A DNA stretch of 6,800 bases from a virus (Duplodnaviria > Heunggongvirae > Uroviricota > Caudoviricetes). Where the stretch lies: IMG/VR virus record IMGVR_UViG_2740892422_000007; one strand, given 5' to 3'. The position numbers and the translations under genes were made by a program. Of this stretch, positions 95-6,706 are shown piece after piece. Position 1 is the first letter of the stretch. The number at the start of each line of letters is the position of its first letter. Below the pieces are notes generated by a model that worked only from the letters and a program-made list of their open reading frames with translations, was not told the DNA's origin and did no database searches.

Positions 95-656
95 GCCATT
101 CAATATCCGGTGCAGTTGATGTATCAACACGGTTCAGCAACACCCGATACTTTTTCCAGGCTTCCAGCAACAAGGTTTCTTCCTCCGTTGCGATCTCCAG
201 ATCCACAGCATCCTGAAGCGGCGCTATATGCTCACTGGCTATCTGCATCAGGCTGTTTTTTGTTTCTTCCGCCTCCCGGATCCGGAACAGTTTTTCTGCT
301 TCCGTATCCTTCACCCAGGCTGTGCCGTTCCACTTCTGATATTCCCCTCCCGGCGATAACCAGGTAACATTTTCCGGTAACGGACCGAGTTCAGAAATAA
401 ATAACGCGTCGCCGGAAGCCACGTCATAAACCGTTTTACCCCGATGATCTTCAACGAGATGCCACGATGCCTCATCACTGTTGAAAACAGCCACGAAGCC
501 TGCCGGAATATCTGGCGGTGCAATATCGGTACTGTTTGCTGGCAGACCTGTATGAGGCGGAATATATGCGTCACCTTCACCAATAAATTCATTAGTTCCG
601 GCCAGCAGATTATAAATTTTTATGGTCCGTGGTTGTTCACTCATTCTGAATGCCAT
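90..656 (-). CDS. tfa: Tail fiber assembly protein Tfa (lambda-like), 188 aa, 3' end truncated by IS1
   Basis: ORF-track translation [48 protein letters not shown] matches lambdoid Tfa proteins from memory. The start overlaps the stf stop (TAATG on the minus strand at 654-658). The last native codon is W (96-98); the final R codon (93-95) and TGA stop (90-92) are supplied by the IS1 end. Confidence 0.88.
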
Positions 657-896
657 TACGCAAGCCTCACAATATAGTTAAATGCGATGTTTTTGACGGT
701 GTTTTCCGCGTTACCAGCAGCGTTAACGGTGATGGTATGTCCATGTGAACCAATCGCAACGGAGTGCGTATGAGCACCAATACCGACAGTATGTGCGTGT
801 GCACCTGCGCTTGCAGCAGTACCCGATACAGAGTGCGTATGAGCGCCTGCAGAAGAAGTGTTAACACTGTATTTAGAATAATCAGGTGATCCACTT
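656..896 (-). pseudogene. stf: Side tail fiber Stf, C-terminal ~80 codons only; 5' portion deleted
   Basis: The C-terminal 80 residues of track ORF 656..1132 read [81 protein letters not shown], with the repeated G(A/S)H(T/A)H motif and a terminal [11 protein letters not shown] typical of lambda Stf. The upstream 78 residues of that ORF are an out-of-frame read across the terminase fragment. No start codon or RBS exists for this fragment. Confidence 0.8.
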
Positions 897-1799
897 CCAG
901 ATCCCGGTCTTTTCGCAGATATAACGGGCATCAGTAAAGTCCAGCTCCTGCTGACGGATGACGCAGGCATTATGCTCACAGAGATAAAACACGCTGGAGG
1001 GATCATCCGGCATCCATTTGAGGCCAAACGGCGTCTCTTTGTCGCCAAATTTAAGGTACTGCTCCTTCCCGCAGTGCGGGCAGGCAACATGAAAACGCAT
1101 AAAATGCGGGGATTCACTGGCTGCACGCTCAATCTGGCAGGTGCCTCTCACTTTGGGCGTGGAGCCACGGATGGATTTTGGCCAGACAGAGCCTTCAATA
1201 CGCTTATCGCCCAGGAACGTCGGAGAGCCTTCCTGTTCAATATCCTCATCAAAGGCAGCAAGTTCATCATAACCCGCCACATCCACTGACTTTTCACGGT
1301 AGTTTTTTGCCGCTTTACCGCCCAGGCACCAGAAGCCACGCCCATTGGTGAAACGCTTCATGGTGAGCGTGTTATCCCGGTGCTTTTTGCCATACCACGG
1401 GGCCAGCGCCAGCAGCGAAGGAATATCACGGATGGTCGGCTCAACGTGGGTTTTCATAAAGTTCTCGGCATCACCATCCGTCGGCAACCAGATAAGTGTG
1501 TTGCGCTGCTTATGCTCTATGAAGTAGGCATAAACACCCAACAGCATTTTGGAATAACCAACACGGGCAGACTTCACCACATTCACCTCGCGGATGTAGT
1601 CGCTGCCCATCGCATTCATGATGGCCCGCTGAAAGGGCAGTGTTTCCCAGCGCCCTTCCTGGTATGCGGATTCTTTCGGGAGATAGTAATTGGCATCCGC
1701 CCATTCAACGGCGGTCTGTGGCTCCGGCCTGAACAGTGAGCGAAGCCCGGCGCGGACAAAATGCCGCAGCCTGTTAACCTGACTGTTCGATATATTCAC
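882..1799 (-). pseudogene. A: Terminase large subunit gpA, N-terminal 301 codons fused to 4 junk codons (KWIT) and a stop; nuclease and portal-binding C-terminal domains absent
   Basis: Translation MNISNSQVNRLRHFVRAGLRSLFRPEPQTAVEWADANYYLPKESAYQEGRWETLPFQRAIMNAMGSDYIREVNVVKSARVGYSKML is near-identical to lambda gpA from memory. Similarity ends after ...YICEKTGIW (codon 301, about base 897). Full-length gpA is about 641 aa. The 5' end overlaps nu1 by 26 nt, as in lambda. Confidence 0.88.
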
Positions 1800-2319
1800 T
1801 CAGCAACCCCGGTATCAGTTCATCCAGCGCGGCTGCTTTGTTCATGGCTTTGATGATATCCCGTTTCAGGAAATCAACATGTCGGTTTTCCAGTTCCGGA
1901 AAACGCCGCTGCACCGACAGGGGGATCCCGTCGAGAATACTGGCAATTTCACCTGCGATCCGCGACAGCACGAAAGTACAGAATGCGGTTTCCACCACTT
2001 CAGCGGAGTCTCTGGCATTTTTCAGCTCCTGTGCGTCGGCCTGCGCACGCGTAAGTCGATGGCGTTCGTACTCAATAGTCCCTGGCTGGAGATCTGTCTC
2101 GCTGGCCTGCCGCAGTTCTTCAACTTCCCGGCGCAGCTTTTCGTTCTCAATTTCAGCATCCCTTTCGGCATACCATTTTATGACGGCGGCAGAATCATAA
2201 AGCACCTCATTACCCTTGCCACCGCCTCGCAGAACGGGCATTCCCTGTTCCTGCCAGTTCTGAATGGTACGGATACTCGCACCGAAAATGTCAGCCAGCT
2301 GCTTTTTGTTGACTTCCAT
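1774..2319 (-). CDS. nu1: Terminase small subunit Nu1, 181 aa, apparently full length
   Basis: Translation MEVNKKQLADIFGASIRTIQNWQEQGMPVLRGGGKGNEVLYDSAAVIKWYAERDAEIENEKLRREVEELRQ... matches lambda Nu1 over its whole length apart from a few substitutions (from memory). Length and the 26-nt overlap with A are as in lambda. Confidence 0.92.
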   Translation of the reverse strand: MEVNKKQLADIFGASIRTIQNWQEQGMPVLRGGGKGNEVLYDSAAVIKWYAERDAEIENEKLRREVEELRQASETDLQPGTIEYERHRLTRAQADAQELKNARDSAEVVETAFCTFVLSRIAGEIASILDGIPLSVQRRFPELENRHVDFLKRDIIKAMNKAAALDELIPGLLSEYIEQSG

Positions 2320-2560
2320 TGTTCATTCCACGGACAAAAACAGAGAAAGGAAACGACAAAGGCCAAAAAGCCCGCTTTCAGCACCTGTCGTTTCCTTTCT
2401 TTTCAGGGGGTATTTTAAATAAAAACATTAAGTTACGACGAAGAAGAACGGAAACACCTTAAACCGGAAAATTTTCATAAATAGCGAAAACCCGCGAGGT
2501 CGCCGCCCCGTAACCTGTCGGATCACCGGAAAGGACCCGTAAAGTGATAATGATTATCAT
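2320..2560 (-). other. cos region: cosB with Nu1-binding R-element repeats, cosN, and the right-end/cosQ side
   Basis: It lies immediately upstream of nu1. The lambda 12-nt cohesive-end sequence GGGCGGCGACCT is present on the minus strand at 2497-2508. Perfect 14-bp inverted repeats GAAAGGAAACGACA (2345-2358) and TGTCGTTTCCTTTC (2386-2399) resemble cosB R elements, and a third CGTTTCC-type element sits near 2440-2452. A 15-bp palindrome TGATAATGATTATCA is at 2545-2559. Confidence 0.8.
2497..2508 (-). other. cosN cohesive-end core (GGGCGGCGACCT on the minus strand)
   Basis: Exact 12-mer match to the lambda cohesive end as recalled, about 190 nt upstream of the nu1 start codon, which is the lambda spacing. 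Confidence 0.75.
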
Positions 2561-2707
2561 CTACATATCACAACGTGCGTGGAGGCCATCAAACCACGTC
2601 AAATAATCAATTATGACGCAGGTATCGTATTAATTGATCTGCATCAACTTAACGTAAAAACAACTTCAGACAATACAAATCAGCGACACTGAATACGGGG
2701 CAACCTC

Positions 2708-2941
2708 ATGTCAACGAAGAACAGAACCCGCAGAACAACAACCCGCAACATCCGCTTTCCTAACCAAATGATTGAACAAATTAACATCGCTCTTGAGCAA
2801 AAAGGGTCCGGGAATTTCTCAGCCTGGGTCATTGAAGCCTGCCGCCGGAGACTGTGCTCAGAAAAAAGAGTTTCTTCTGAAGCAAACAAAGAAAAGAGTG
2901 ACATTACTGAATTGCTCAGAAAACAGGTCAGACCAGATTGA
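2708..2941 (+). CDS. Small ribbon-helix-helix-like DNA-binding protein, 77 aa, hypothetical
   Basis: Track ORF MSTKNRTRRTTTRNIRFPNQMIEQINIALEQKGSGNFSAWVIEACRRRL... has a basic N-terminus, a short strand-like NIRFP, then two helix-like segments, which is the Arc/MetJ/CopG pattern. Fold assignment is by eye only. Sits 42 bp upstream of, and on the same strand as, the DUF1398-like gene. Confidence 0.55.
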   Translation: MSTKNRTRRTTTRNIRFPNQMIEQINIALEQKGSGNFSAWVIEACRRRLCSEKRVSSEANKEKSDITELLRKQVRPD

Positions 2942-2998
2942 AGCAATTTAGATAATCGTGCAGACTACGCCCCCTCATATCACATGGAAGGTTTATCT

Positions 2999-3409
2999 AT
3001 GGATCAGGTAGTCATTTTTAAACAAATATTTGATAAAGTTCGAAACGATTTAAACTATCAATGGTTTTATTCTGAGCTAAAACGTCACAATGTCTCACAT
3101 TACATTTACTATTTAGCCACAGAGAATGTTCATATTGTATTAAAAAATGATAATACAGTGTTATTAAAGGGCCTAAAAAACATTGTGTCTGTCAAATTTT
3201 CAAAGGATAGGCATCTTATAGAAACGACCTCTAATAAGCTGAAATCCAGAGAGATCACATTTCAGGAATACAGAAGAAACCTTGCTAAAGCAGGAGTTTT
3301 TCGGTGGGTTACAAATATCCACGAACAAAAAAGATATTACTATACCTTTGATAATTCATTACTATTTACTGAAAGCATCCAGAAAACTACACAGATCTTA
3401 CCACGCTAA
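2999..3409 (+). CDS. DUF1398-like prophage protein (YbcV/YdfO-like), 136 aa from the ATG at 2999; track ORF begins at an upstream in-frame ATG at 2984
   Basis: Track ORF 2984..3409. The second ATG at 2999 is preceded by GGAAGG 9 nt upstream; the first ATG has no Shine-Dalgarno. Position next to cos/nu1 and a 136-aa length fit the YbcV/YdfO family from memory; family assignment not verified. Confidence 0.65.
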
Positions 3410-3418
3410 ACCATAACG

Positions 3419-3447
3419 TCCGGCTTCTCTCACTCCTGAGCCGGACT
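3419..3447 (+). terminator. Candidate stem-loop between the convergent DUF1398-like and Gns genes
   Basis: GTCCGGCT ... AGCCGGAC 8-bp inverted repeat with a 13-nt loop, 10 bp after the DUF1398-like stop. The downstream T-run is weak (TGCATTGGTTT). Confidence 0.3.
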
Positions 3448-3560
3448 GCATTGGTTTAATAAAAACCATCAACAATTGTGATTTAGATATTCGGAACCAT
3501 TCAAATATAACAAAACCCCGTAAAAACGAGGTTTATGGATAAATTTTATTATTGAATACA

Positions 3561-3734
3561 TCAGATTAAATTAATCTTGACATCATAGCTTTCAAGACCC
3601 GTCATTTTTTCCCGTGCGGTAAACTGAATACTGGTAACTTCTTTCCCGGTCTTTTTCTTAAGTTCAATAATTTTTTTTGTTATATATTCAGAAATATCTG
3701 CTTCTGCTTTTATTTTTAAGTTTTCAATATTCAT
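3561..3734 (-). CDS. Gns-family small protein (GnsA/GnsB-like), 57 aa; absent from the supplied ORF track
   Basis: Hand translation of the minus strand: MNIENLKIKAEADISEYITKKIIELKKKTGKEVTSIQFTAREKMTGLESYDVKINLI, then TGA at 3561-3563. Start ATG at 3732-3734 is preceded by AAGAGGAAA. Length and the REKMTGLESYDVKI segment match GnsA/GnsB as recalled. Confidence 0.7.
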   Translation of the reverse strand: MNIENLKIKAEADISEYITKKIIELKKKTGKEVTSIQFTAREKMTGLESYDVKINLI

Positions 3735-3782
3735 CATTTCCTCTTTTAGTCTGTTATGACTTTCCAGTTACACAGTAAGTCG

Positions 3783-3811
3783 ATTATATGGTGCAAACGT
3801 GTAAAAGATAA
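3783..3811 (-). promoter_or_regulatory. Candidate sigma70 promoter for the Gns gene
   Basis: Perfect TATAAT on the minus strand (plus 3783-3788), with a weak -35 TTATCT at 17-bp spacing (plus 3806-3811), about 45 nt upstream of the Gns start. Confidence 0.35.
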
Positions 3812-3905
3812 GATGAAACATCGCAATAATCAACATACGATAGTCTAAATTTTACACAAACAGACAAAGAGAATTTTCCTGAATTATCAATGCAATAGCA
3901 TCAAA

Positions 3906-4061
3906 TCAACTCAAGAGCCTTATTGCTGCTTCCAGAATTTCTTCTGAAGTAACATGTCGATCCGCGGCTACATAAATGACTTTATGATCTCCGGTCAGAG
4001 ATGGAAACCCTGCGGCCATTACAGTAAGGTGTGTTTTTTCGCCATTTGGATATTCACGCAT
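3906..4061 (-). CDS. Small hypothetical protein, 51 aa from the ATG at 4059-4061 (MREYPNGEKTHLTVMAAGFPSLTGDHKVIYVAADRHVTSEEILEAAIRLLS); in-frame extension possible to ATG 4134-4136 (76 aa) or the track's TTG at 4176-4178 (90 aa)
   Basis: Track ORF 3906..4178, which starts at TTG inside the cspI terminator hairpin, so that start is unlikely. The internal ATG at 4061 has GGAG about 11 nt upstream. The segment 4100-4136 contains A7 and T8 homopolymers. No family recognised. A 51-aa size fits the small ynfN-type gene found between gnsB and cspI in Qin, but that is memory of gene order only. Confidence 0.4.
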   Translation of the reverse strand: MREYPNGEKTHLTVMAAGFPSLTGDHKVIYVAADRHVTSEEILEAAIRLLS

Positions 4062-4180
4062 GATGGTGTTAACTCCAGTCATCGCTGGCACTACCACTGC
4101 TGGTTCAGAGTTAAAAAAAACTATGATTTTTTTCATGATGTTACCGTAGTATGTGAGTATCCATCGAATAGACACCAAGC

Positions 4181-4200
4181 AAAAAAGCTCCCGAAGGAGC
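4181..4200 (-). terminator. Rho-independent terminator downstream of the cspI-like gene
   Basis: GC stem GCTCC / GGAGC with CGAA tetraloop at 4187-4200. On the minus strand it is followed directly by TTTTTT (plus A6 at 4181-4186). On the plus strand it is followed by an interrupted T-rich run, so it may act in both directions. Confidence 0.55.
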
Positions 4201-4407
4201 CTTCATTTTCACTTTTTTAAATCCAACGACAGACGGCTGGCATTTAAGTATTGTGAAATATTATCAAATGTAATCATCATTGATTTACAAAAGATACATT
4301 TTGCCCCGAAAGGATTCATGTCAGAAACATCAAAAGATGATGTTCTATACTGGGAACCATGACAACACGGGCATCTAAAGTGAATATGGTTTGTAATATT
4401 GTCTACC

Positions 4408-4620
4408 TCAAAGCGCCACTACATGAACAGCGGCAGGACCTTTAGGTCCGTTCTCAATACCAAATTCAACTTCCTGATTCTCAGTTAATGTTTTGAAATC
4501 GTTGCTCTGAATTGCTGAGAAATGGACAAACACATCTTTGCTGCCATCTTTCGGCGTGATGAAACCAAAACCTTTTTCAGGGTTAAACCATTTCACTAAA
4601 CCAGTCATTTTGTTAGACAT
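4408..4620 (-). CDS. cspI: CspA-family cold shock protein, 70 aa, CspI-like
   Basis: Translation [70 protein letters not shown] carries the RNP1-like KGFGFI and RNP2-like VFVHF motifs. The [14 protein letters not shown] variant and the lysis-gene neighbourhood match Qin CspI as I recall it. Start context AAAGGTAATAATT-ATG resembles the cspA leader. Confidence 0.85.
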
Positions 4621-4735
4621 AATTATTACCTTTTGAAGAAATTAGCCCTTGGGCAGAATGGTCCGAAAAAAAATATCAGAGAGAAAAACCAACAAGGAAA
4701 TCTCAAGAGGTACAAATAATAAAATTATAACAATG
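4621..4735 (-). promoter_or_regulatory. Candidate cspI promoter (extended -10) and roughly 100-nt AT-rich 5' leader
   Basis: Minus-strand TGTTATAAT (plus 4724-4732) is a TGn-TATAAT extended -10. A long leader is characteristic of cspA-family genes. No experimental support. Confidence 0.4.
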
Positions 4736-4982
4736 ACTGCTTCAGATAAATTTGTAACAAACCAGAACACCATTAACGCATGATTAACCACCCATAGCAA
4801 GGATTACTTTTGTAAAGAAAAACACAGCAATGAAAGAATAGCTTTATTTATTAATAAAACGTGTCATTCTGATTAAGACCTTTTATCTTACCCTTAAGAT
4901 TTCAGGAATTTTGGCTCATGGAAGAGTCCTTTTTATTTAAATTTTACATTCCGCGATGTAAATGTTCCGATTTAATATTACC

Positions 4983-6006
<1,024 letters not shown>

Positions 6007-6010
<4 letters not shown>

Positions 6011-6318
6011 AGATATTTATGATGAGGACGCTCGTGCTTATTGGCAGGATTTTCAATCTTAAAGGAGTACTGATGCTGCAGATAAGACTCAACTTTTTCT
6101 GACAATTTTTCTGCTACTTCCAGGAAGACTTGCCGGACGCTCCTTCTGGCTGCTGCCTCATAAAACTCCAGCGCAGCTCCTTCAACACGGTCCATGGCGA
6201 CATCCAGGTCAAAAATTTCACCGTCAAAGCGTTCTTTGTCCTGTAAGGCTACAGTTACCGTAACTTTATTCTCAAAATTACGGACTCCTTTCACAACCAG
6301 TTCATAGTCTTGAGTCAT
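6007..6318 (-). CDS. DUF1327-like prophage protein (YdfR-like), 103 aa, function unknown
   Basis: Track ORF with strong RBS GAGGAGAG upstream of the ATG at 6316-6318. Its stop overlaps the endolysin start (ATGA at 6007-6010). Length and position between holin and endolysin match ydfR of Qin from memory; acidic, no transmembrane segment. Confidence 0.7.
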
Positions 6319-6322
6319 TGGA

Positions 6323-6538
6323 TTACTCTCCTCTCGCAGCCTTACGCCTGTCTTCTTTAATCTTGAAATAAAGATTTGTCAGATACGTCAGCAGGCCAAA
6401 AACCAGGCTACCCAGCACACCGATTGCAGCCCACTGTGACGGAGTTACTTTATCGAGTAACTGCAATGCCCAGAAACCAGCATTACCCGCCGATGTGCCA
6501 TAGGCAACACCTGTTGTTAACTTATCCATTGATTTCAT
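6323..6538 (-). CDS. S: Class II pinholin (S21-like) with dual-start motif, 71 aa (68 aa from the second start)
   Basis: Real start is [71 protein letters not shown]. Two in-frame ATGs at 6536-6538 and 6527-6529 are separated by K-S, RBS GGGGTGAGG lies upstream, and there are two transmembrane segments with a basic C-terminus. The track ORF's 25-residue N-terminal extension is a run-on, not coding. Confidence 0.85.
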
Positions 6539-6706
6539 ATCCTCACCCCGATGTACACGGATGGTGCAATATGTTTGAAAAGATCGGAGTCTACGGGGTA
6601 GTTTTGACAGCACACGTTGTTCTCAACGGCGCTAAAAAAACATACACATTAAAAATGTGGGTAATTATTTTGAAAGAAAGTCATATATAAAATAATAATA
6701 CGAGAA

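What the first reader, a model, noticed from the sequence alone, without database searches (positions are those of the whole stretch)
3561..3734. Unlisted 57-aa Gns-family gene
The supplied ORF track has no entry here, presumably because of a length cutoff, yet the minus strand encodes a clean 57-aa ORF with a strong RBS, its own candidate promoter (perfect TATAAT at 3783-3788) and a Gns-like sequence. Gns proteins are known as multicopy suppressors affecting unsaturated fatty acid content, and they sit beside cold shock genes in prophages.
Basis: partly seen in the sequence, partly recalled or inferred. Interest (0 to 1): 0.4.

Follow-up and report, generated by a model that had tools for sequence, protein, structure and literature searches.

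The report
gnsB gene of Qin prophage
The 57-codon reading frame is real, but it is the well-known E. coli prophage gene gnsB, already annotated in thousands of genomes; making too much of this small protein shifts membrane lipids towards unsaturated fatty acids, so the finding is correct and ordinary.

Summary
Window 3561..3734 (minus strand) is a 57-codon ORF with an AAGAGG ribosome-binding site 5 nt upstream, a TATAAT at 3788..3783 and a hairpin terminator at 3534..3513.

It is gnsB of the defective lambdoid prophage Qin. The DNA is 99.7-99.8% identical to E. coli K-12, where RefSeq annotates exactly this CDS. The protein matches Pfam PF08178 (GnsAB_toxin) end to end (E=2e-34), is 67% identical to GnsA (PDB 4XO1/4XO2), and shows purifying selection (dN/dS about 0.13 against gnsA).

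The only difference from K-12 GnsB is T8I, at a variable position. That exact protein is already in public E. coli assemblies.

Neither the ORF length nor the TATAAT hexamer exceeds chance. The gene call rests on homology, codon-position pattern, synteny and published genetics.

A weaker TTGATT-17-TATCTT block 20 nt upstream is conserved into Citrobacter.

gnsB is the last gene of a conserved cassette, csp - ynfQ/ymcF - (ynfN or ymcE) - gns. The 'toxin' label comes from GnsA-YmcE, and no YmcE homologue is present here.

Verdict: already known, low interest.

The parts
3561..3734 (-). gnsB coding sequence: 57 aa plus TGA stop. Allele T8I relative to E. coli K-12 (A at 3712 where K-12 has G).
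   Evidence: ORF. RefSeq CDS gnsB WP_001019606.1 at the same position in K-12. Pfam PF08178 E=2e-34. 67% identical to GnsA. dN/dS 0.13 against gnsA, with differences by codon position 11/5/30. Single nucleotide difference at 3712.
3740..3745 (-). Shine-Dalgarno sequence AAGAGG, 5 nt upstream of the ATG at 3734.
   Evidence: Read directly. AGAGG is invariant in 10 Escherichia and Citrobacter loci and in the gnsA locus.
3783..3788 (-). Best -35 is TTATCT at 3811..3806 (3 of 6 matches, 17-nt spacer). It would give a 5'UTR of about 42 nt.
   Evidence: Present. Not called by the promoter scan. Conserved in divergent Escherichia gnsB alleles and in 80 of 80 IMG/VR loci but absent from the Citrobacter orthologous loci. 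The hexamer count in the window is not above chance.
3805..3833 (-). Alternative promoter-like block conserved across genera: TTGATT (3833..3828), 17 nt, TATCTT (3810..3805).
   Evidence: TTGAT and TATC.T are invariant columns in alignment A2 of Escherichia and Citrobacter loci, within an otherwise poorly conserved spacer. It matches 8 of 12 consensus positions, below the scan threshold. Its function is inferred, not shown.
3513..3534 (-). Intrinsic terminator hairpin AAACCTCG-TTTTTA-CGGGGTTT followed by a T-rich tail, starting 27 nt after the gnsB stop codon.
   Evidence: Terminator scan. RNA fold -12.1 kcal/mol, z=-2.4. The Citrobacter loci have a hairpin plus T-run of unrelated sequence at the same place.
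3906..4136 (-). ynfN, upstream neighbour, intact at 76 aa here (frameshifted in K-12). It is not homologous to ymcE, which occupies this slot in the gnsA locus.
   Evidence: ORF. Extra A at 4113 relative to K-12. Named protein YnfN in public records. phrog_3425. No BLASTP alignment to YmcE and no Pfam family.
4209..4397 (-). ynfQ, a YmcF-like small Cys-rich protein (62 aa) with an ATT start codon; second gene of the cassette.
   Evidence: K-12 annotation. PF23641 YmcF-like E=7e-32. No ATG/GTG/TTG start is listed for it and the translation begins ITNH.
4408..4620 (-). cspI cold-shock protein gene, first gene of the cassette. Its cspA-type 5'UTR thermoregulator spans 4381..4766.
   Evidence: PF00313 E=1.6e-31. 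K-12 annotation. Rfam RF01766, 112.8 bits.

Best explanation
This is gnsB, a 57-aa soluble protein (6.6 kDa, no hydrophobic segment). It is encoded as cargo (a 'moron') in the AT-rich accessory region of a Qin-type defective lambdoid prophage of E. coli, between the lysis genes and the terminase genes.

It is the last gene of a four-gene cold-shock-associated cassette, cspI - ynfQ - ynfN - gnsB. This cassette is a paralogue of the chromosomal cspG - ymcF - ymcE - gnsA.

Shown here: the gene identity, its translation signals, purifying selection, a fold like that of GnsA, and the conserved synteny.

From the literature, for the K-12 allele that differs by T8I: plasmid expression of gnsB, like gnsA, raises the proportion of unsaturated fatty acids. 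It also suppresses fabA6(Ts), the cold-sensitive secG null mutation, and the low-temperature growth defect of relA fadR mutants.

Inferred: GnsB acts as a small regulatory protein, probably a dimer like GnsA, that binds a component of lipid synthesis and shifts acyl-chain and head-group composition towards a more fluid membrane. This would help the lysogen at low temperature. Its direct target is unknown.

Transcription most likely starts in the ynfN-gnsB spacer, either from the conserved TTGATT-17-TATCTT block or, in Escherichia, from the TATAAT 20 nt downstream. It ends at the hairpin 27 nt after the stop codon.
For: - Identity: 99.7-99.8% DNA identity to K-12 and many other E. coli, with gnsB annotated under the match.
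- Protein: 56 of 57 residues identical to K-12 GnsB. The exact protein is on record under the GnsA/GnsB family name on 59 contigs.
- Family: PF08178 E=2e-34, full length. GnsA chains 4XO2/4XO1 at E=1e-19. AF2 model with pLDDT 90.5 matches 4XO2 at TM 0.71.
- Selection: dN/dS 0.13 against gnsA and 0.18-0.27 against divergent gnsB alleles.
- Synteny: csp, ynfQ/ymcF, X, gns in 23 of 23 genome loci and 80 of 80 viral contigs, and in isolated phages.
- Moron features: GC 31-42% against 47-55% in the flanks; a terminator.
- Function: papers read, citing Sugai et al. 2001. pCAgnsB rescues relA fadR at 25 C.
- Soluble protein: maximum Kyte-Doolittle value over 19 residues is -0.13.
Against: - All functional data come from overexpression. 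No loss-of-function phenotype for gnsB was found in the papers read.
- The molecular basis is explicitly stated to be unknown.
- The primary papers (Sugai 2001 and 2004; Wei 2015) were not available to read.
- No transcription start data could be retrieved. The promoter is not called by the consensus scan.
- The T8I allele itself has never been tested.
- Databases name the family a 'toxin', which is a different functional claim.
Confidence: 0.85

Rival explanations
1. GnsB is the toxin of a toxin-antitoxin (addiction) module, as its Pfam and RefSeq names say. It would either be an orphan toxin or be neutralised by the product of the upstream gene ynfN, which would stand in for YmcE.
For: - The family is named GnsAB_toxin or 'addiction module toxin'.
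- ymcE-gnsA is listed among E. coli type II TA pairs. YmcE is Pfam 'YmcE_antitoxin'.
- A TA survey found partners of GnsAB_toxin strictly upstream.
- A preprint reports that gnsB overexpression lowers ATP and raises persister counts.
- ynfN occupies the slot that ymcE holds in the gnsA locus, and has the same length of 76 aa.
Against: - YnfN shows no detectable similarity to YmcE, has no Pfam family and does not match PADLOC.
- ymcE overlaps gnsA by 11 nt, whereas ynfN and gnsB are 171 nt apart.
- K-12 carries a frameshifted ynfN with an intact, clonable gnsB.
- gnsB plasmids rescue growth rather than stop it.
- No paper I could read shows toxicity or neutralisation directly.
Confidence: 0.12
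2. The gene is translated from the first ATG (3737) to give a 58-aa protein starting MMNIE.
For: the ORF listing reports the ORF from 3737. Both ATGs are in frame and adjacent.
Against: - The Shine-Dalgarno sequence lies only 2 nt from this ATG, against 5 nt from the ATG at 3734.
- The first ATG is not conserved in gnsA or Citrobacter and is ACG in one viral contig.
- Pfam alignment starts at residue 2 of the 58-aa form.
- RefSeq uses 3734.
Confidence: 0.05
3. The ORF is a chance open frame in AT-rich intergenic DNA and is not a gene.
For: An ORF of this length arises in 29% of shuffles of the region. TATAAT is not enriched in the window.
Against: - Full-length family match at E=2e-34.
- A solved structure exists for the paralogue.
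- Differences from gnsA are biased to the third codon position, with dN/dS 0.13.
- The gene is conserved in Citrobacter at 82-84% amino-acid identity, while its flanks have diverged.
- Published phenotypes of the cloned gene.
Confidence: 0.01

Closest known systems
GnsB (ydfY, Qin prophage) of Escherichia coli K-12, RefSeq WP_001019606.1
   Same: Same gene at the same position in the same prophage. 173 of 174 nt and 56 of 57 aa are identical. The RBS, upstream spacer and terminator are the same.
   Different: One substitution, T8I (window 3712). The position varies across the family: T, K or R in other members. The neighbour ynfN is intact here and frameshifted in K-12. The prophage deletion endpoint on the terminase side differs.
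GnsA (yccL) of E. coli, PDB 4XO1/4XO2
   Same: - 67% identical over all 57 residues, with the FTAREKMTGLESYDVKI block identical.
- Predicted fold matches at TM 0.71.
- Same place at the end of a csp - ymcF-like - X - gns cassette.
- Same overexpression phenotypes reported.
   Different: - gnsA is chromosomal and nearly universal (5418 of 5426 genomes), whereas gnsB is prophage-borne and present in about 39%.
- gnsA has a GTG start and overlaps ymcE. gnsB has an ATG start, a 171-nt spacer and an unrelated upstream gene.
- Predicted pI is 5.4 for GnsA and 9.0 for GnsB.
GnsA-YmcE putative type II toxin-antitoxin pair
   Same: The Gns component belongs to the same Pfam family, and a 76-aa gene lies immediately upstream on the same strand.
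   Different: There is no YmcE-family protein here. YnfN is unrelated in sequence, and the two genes are not overlapping or coupled. Toxicity of GnsB was not documented in any paper I could read.
Lambdoid phage morons (accessory cargo genes with their own promoter and terminator)
   Same: An AT-rich insert between the lysis and packaging modules. It has its own terminator and a candidate promoter, and it is present in some related phages and prophages and absent from others.
   Different: Promoter activity was not demonstrated. Here the cargo is a whole multi-gene cold-shock cassette rather than a single gene.

Membership tests
GnsA/GnsB family (Pfam PF08178) | Full-length match to the family profile above the curated threshold | tested here: met
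   117.7 bits against a cut-off of 27, E=2e-34, profile positions 1-54 of 54. Also phrog_2301, E=7.5e-38.
GnsA/GnsB family (Pfam PF08178) | Single-domain protein of about 57 aa with the conserved C-terminal block FTAREKMTGLESYD | tested here: met
   57 aa. The block is identical to that of GnsA and conserved in Citrobacter orthologues.
GnsA/GnsB family (Pfam PF08178) | Fold of the solved GnsA structure (4XO1/4XO2) | tested here: met
   Single-sequence AF2 model, pLDDT 90.5, order beta-alpha-beta-beta. The top three PDB matches are GnsA chains, TM 0.71, rmsd 2.5 over 48 columns. The dimeric state was not modelled.
GnsA/GnsB family (Pfam PF08178) | Genomic position at the 3' end of a csp - ymcF/ynfQ - X - gns cassette | tested here: met
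   23 of 23 genome loci and 80 of 80 IMG/VR loci. The window has cspI, ynfQ, ynfN, gnsB.
GnsA/GnsB family (Pfam PF08178) | Overexpression raises unsaturated fatty acid content and suppresses fabA6(Ts) and the secG null mutation | not testable with these tools
   Reported for K-12 gnsB (Sugai et al. 2001, as cited; pCAgnsB rescue). The T8I allele is untested.
Type II toxin-antitoxin module GnsA-YmcE | Adjacent upstream antitoxin of the YmcE family (PF15939) | tested here: not met
   The upstream gene is ynfN. It has no BLASTP alignment to YmcE and no Pfam hit, whereas YmcE itself scores E=1.6e-56 to PF15939.
Type II toxin-antitoxin module GnsA-YmcE | Overlapping or tightly coupled bicistronic arrangement of antitoxin and toxin | tested here: not met
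   ymcE and gnsA overlap by 11 nt. ynfN and gnsB are separated by 171 nt, a spacer that contains promoter-like elements.
Type II toxin-antitoxin module GnsA-YmcE | Growth inhibition by the toxin, relieved by the cognate antitoxin | not testable with these tools
   Only indirect reports were found: lower ATP and more persisters on overexpression. Against that, gnsB plasmids rescue growth of relA fadR mutants.
Phage moron | Accessory DNA inside a phage genome with deviant base composition, variably present among relatives | tested here: met
   GC 31-42% across about 2400-5000, against 47-55% in the flanking phage genes. The region lies between Rz and nu1. gnsB-type locus is present in 2123 of 5426 genomes and in 7 phage records.
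Phage moron | Own promoter and own terminator | tested here: inconclusive
   The terminator is supported. The promoter rests on sequence motifs and conservation only; no TSS data were obtained.

The most novel reading that the evidence does not exclude
The most novel reading the evidence allows is that csp - ymcF/ynfQ - X - gns is a mobile cold-adaptation module that lambdoid phages carry between Escherichia and Citrobacter. In this reading the third gene is a swappable slot (ymcE or the unrelated ynfN). gnsB would be a lysogenic-conversion function that retunes host membrane lipids at low temperature from its own conserved promoter (TTGATT-17-TATCTT). YnfN would be a non-homologous functional replacement for YmcE as the partner or modulator of Gns.
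Probability: 0.2. Interest if true: 0.4.

Novelty: already known. Interest (0 to 1): 0.08.

Why it matters
It matters little as a discovery. gnsB was named in 2001, its paralogue has a crystal structure, and RefSeq annotates it routinely. The practical lesson is that a length cutoff of about 60 aa in an ORF track hides real, characterised small genes.

What remains open is biological. The direct target through which GnsA and GnsB change fatty-acid and phospholipid composition is still unknown. The 'toxin' label rests on thin evidence. Why a prophage carries a complete copy of a chromosomal cold-shock cassette has not been explained.

Tried and rejected
- ORF-length significance: 29% of shuffles reach 57 aa, so length gives no support.
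- TATAAT enrichment: 3 observed against 4.0 expected, so the hexamer alone gives no support.
- NCBIfam and PADLOC: no hit for GnsB.
- 5'UTR thermosensor idea: no stable or conserved structure (z=+0.76; consensus -3.8 kcal/mol with one covarying pair). Rejected.
- YnfN as a YmcE homologue: no alignment. Rejected.
- Experimental TSS data: the Cappable-seq supplement is truncated before this locus.
- Primary papers: Sugai 2001 and 2004 are not held. A search for the GnsA structure paper returned nothing relevant.
- The two large protein-database searches were not run, because Pfam, PDB, RefSeq annotation and the exact-sequence look-up already settled identity.
- The chance-ORF reading and the 58-aa start were both considered and rejected (see rival explanations).

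Full report
**1. What is in the sequence**

On the minus strand, an ATG at 3734..3732 opens a frame that runs to TGA at 3563..3561. It encodes 57 aa: MNIENLKIKAEADISEYITKKIIELKKKTGKEVTSIQFTAREKMTGLESYDVKINLI.

- A second in-frame ATG lies one codon upstream (3737..3735), which is why ORF listing reports 3561..3737, 58 aa.
- AAGAGG at 3745..3740 lies 5 nt before the 3734 ATG and only 2 nt before the 3737 ATG.
- TATAAT is at 3788..3783.
- A hairpin followed by a T-rich tail is at 3534..3513, starting 27 nt after the stop codon. The terminator scan calls it, and it folds at -12.1 kcal/mol with z=-2.4.

**2. Is it more than chance?**

Not by length or motif alone.

- 29% of dinucleotide-preserving shuffles of the 496-nt gap between the flanking genes contain an ORF of at least 57 aa.
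- TATAAT occurs 3 times in the window against 4.0 expected.
- The consensus promoter scan does not report this site, because its best -35 (TTATCT, 17-nt spacer) matches only 3 of 6 positions.

The gene call rests on other evidence.

- The protein matches Pfam PF08178 (GnsAB_toxin) over the whole profile: 117.7 bits, E=2e-34.
- It matches the two PDB GnsA sequences at E about 1e-19 and is 67% identical to GnsA over all 57 residues.
- Against gnsA, nucleotide differences fall 11/5/30 on codon positions 1/2/3. dN/dS is 0.13. Against divergent gnsB alleles it is 0.18-0.27.
- A single-sequence AlphaFold model (pLDDT 90.5, order beta-alpha-beta-beta) has the GnsA chains as its three best PDB matches, at TM 0.71.

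**3. Identity**

- The 501 nt around the ORF are 99.8% identical to many complete E. coli genomes, including K-12 MG1655. The annotated feature under the match is 'gnsB: GnsA/GnsB family addiction module toxin'.
- Window 1791..6706 aligns to K-12 Qin prophage at 99.7%.
- The only difference inside gnsB is A at 3712 where K-12 has G, giving T8I.
- No complete genome in the collection carries this nucleotide (best matches 99.7-99.8%). However, the exact 57-aa protein is on record in public E. coli assemblies on 59 contigs, so it is a natural minor allele.
- Position 8 is variable in the family: T in K-12 and in all 80 IMG/VR loci, K in GnsA, mostly R (T in C. braakii) in Citrobacter.

**4. Start codon**

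The 3734 ATG aligns with the GTG start of gnsA and the ATG start of the Citrobacter orthologues. The 3737 ATG is not conserved there and reads ACG in one viral contig. The 57-aa reading is correct.

**5. Surroundings**

Reading along the minus strand, the window carries:

- a P21-type holin, ydfR, a lysozyme and an Rz-like gene;
- cspI (4408..4620), ynfQ (4209..4397), ynfR, ynfN (3906..4136) and gnsB;
- on the plus strand, ynfO and ydfO;
- then nu1 (1774..2319), a 305-aa N-terminal fragment of the large terminase, a tail-fibre C-terminal fragment and tfaQ.

The stretch from about 2400 to 5000 has 31-42% GC, against 47-55% in the flanking phage genes. That is typical of accessory cargo. The cspI leader matches the Rfam cspA thermoregulator.

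**6. A conserved cassette**

The chromosomal gnsA locus reads cspG - ymcF - ymcE - gnsA.

- A DNA alignment shows that the csp, ymcF/ynfQ and gns parts of the two loci are homologous, while the third gene is not.
- YnfN and YmcE, both 76 aa, give no BLASTP alignment.
- YmcE belongs to Pfam 'YmcE_antitoxin', and YnfN belongs to no Pfam family.
- ymcE overlaps gnsA by 11 nt, whereas ynfN and gnsB are 171 nt apart.
- All 23 loci recovered from species-representative genomes keep the order csp, ynfQ/ymcF, (ynfN or ymcE), gns. Most are Escherichia, Shigella and Citrobacter; two are metagenome bins labelled otherwise that carry E. coli-like sequence.
- All 80 IMG/VR loci keep the Qin arrangement: Rz, cspI, ynfQ, ynfN, gnsB, ydfO, ynfO, nu1.
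- Seven isolated phages carry it in the same place.

The gnsB type is present in 2123 of 5426 complete E. coli genomes, and gnsA in 5418.

**7. Transcription signals**

I compared the window with divergent Escherichia alleles and seven Citrobacter loci.

- The coding sequence and the AGAGG are conserved.
- A hairpin plus T-run follows the stop codon in both genera, but with unrelated sequences. This argues that termination there is selected.
- A block 20 nt further upstream is invariant across genera: TTGATT (3833..3828), 17 nt, TATCTT (3810..3805). It is a weaker sigma-70-like promoter, matching 8 of 12 positions.
- Either element could drive gnsB. I could not obtain TSS data.
- The leader shows no significant or conserved RNA structure.

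**8. Function**

I could not read the primary papers. Papers I did read state the following.

- Overexpression of gnsA and of gnsB increases unsaturated fatty acids and suppresses fabA6(Ts) and the cold-sensitive secG null mutation (Sugai et al. 2001, cited).
- pCAgnsB, like pCAgnsA, rescues the 25 C growth defect of a relA fadR strain.
- gnsB mRNA clustered with cspB, cspC and cspI in a microarray study.
- gnsB mRNA rose at the onset of persister formation, and its overexpression lowered ATP and raised persister counts.

GnsB has no hydrophobic segment. My best account is a small soluble regulator that binds a lipid-synthesis component and shifts the membrane towards higher fluidity. It would be carried as prophage cargo within a cold-shock cassette. 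The binding step and its target are inferred.

**9. The toxin label**

Pfam and RefSeq call the family a toxin because ymcE-gnsA is listed as a type II TA pair. The defining features were tested here with these results:

- no YmcE-family partner is present;
- there is no overlapping gene arrangement;
- there is no PADLOC match.

In addition, K-12 tolerates an intact gnsB next to a frameshifted ynfN. I keep the TA reading as a minor rival, at about 0.12.

**10. Verdict**

The feature is the known gene gnsB, in a natural T8I allele. Novelty: already known. Interest: low.

- the correct start codon;
- the weakness of the ORF-length and TATAAT arguments taken alone;
- the alternative promoter block conserved across genera;
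- the cassette paralogy, with a swapped third gene;
- the failure of the TA membership test at this locus.

Noticed in passing
window 3906..4136 (-), especially 4113: ynfN is an intact 76-aa ORF here. K-12 lacks the A at 4113, and RefSeq marks its ynfN as frameshifted. The intact form is common in public E. coli (over 1000 contigs) and in phages.
   Followed up: partly
window 4209..4397 (-); L003 2370..2558 (-): ynfQ and its chromosomal paralogue ymcF (Pfam YmcF-like, CxxC-rich, 62 aa) both begin with ATT rather than ATG/GTG/TTG, about 10 nt after the csp stop codon. A conserved non-canonical start in a cold-shock cassette might be IF3-sensitive.
   Followed up: no
window 3480..4640 versus L003 1920..2800: The whole cassette cspI-ynfQ-ynfN-gnsB is a paralogue of chromosomal cspG-ymcF-ymcE-gnsA, except that the third gene (ynfN versus ymcE) is unrelated in sequence though equal in length (76 aa). 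One Citrobacter locus (L016) pairs a GnsB-like protein with a YmcE-like upstream gene.
   Followed up: partly
window 845..1790 and 882..1799 (-): This stretch of about 950 nt is absent from K-12 Qin. It encodes a 305-aa N-terminal fragment of the large terminase (GpA_ATPase) fused onto a tail-fibre C-terminal fragment (656..1132). The prophage is therefore defective, but its deletion endpoint differs from that of K-12.
   Followed up: partly
window 2177..2456: 12 of the 13 substitutions relative to K-12 across 4.9 kb cluster in this 280-nt stretch around the 5' end and upstream region of nohA/nu1. This suggests a small recombination patch.
   Followed up: no
window 115..313 (-): Full-length Rfam match to IS009 (RF02111, 221.5 bits) lying inside the tail-fibre assembly gene tfaQ.
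   Followed up: no
window 4381..4766 (-) and 4724..4729 (-): Rfam cspA thermoregulator match covering the cspI leader and coding region. One of the window's three TATAAT hexamers sits at its 5' end, on the right strand to be the cspI promoter.
   Followed up: no
window 4187..4200: Palindromic hairpin GCTCC-TTCG-GGAGC, followed on the minus strand by TTTTTTGC. It lies just after the ynfQ stop codon and inside the annotated 21-codon ynfR, so it looks like a terminator or attenuator between ynfQ and ynfN. The scan listed it only for the plus strand.
   Followed up: no
L007 and L020 (genome-contig hits): Metagenome bins labelled Veillonella parvula and Mucilaginibacter sp. carry E. coli-identical gnsB and gnsA cassettes. 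This is almost certainly mis-binned Escherichia contigs.
   Followed up: no
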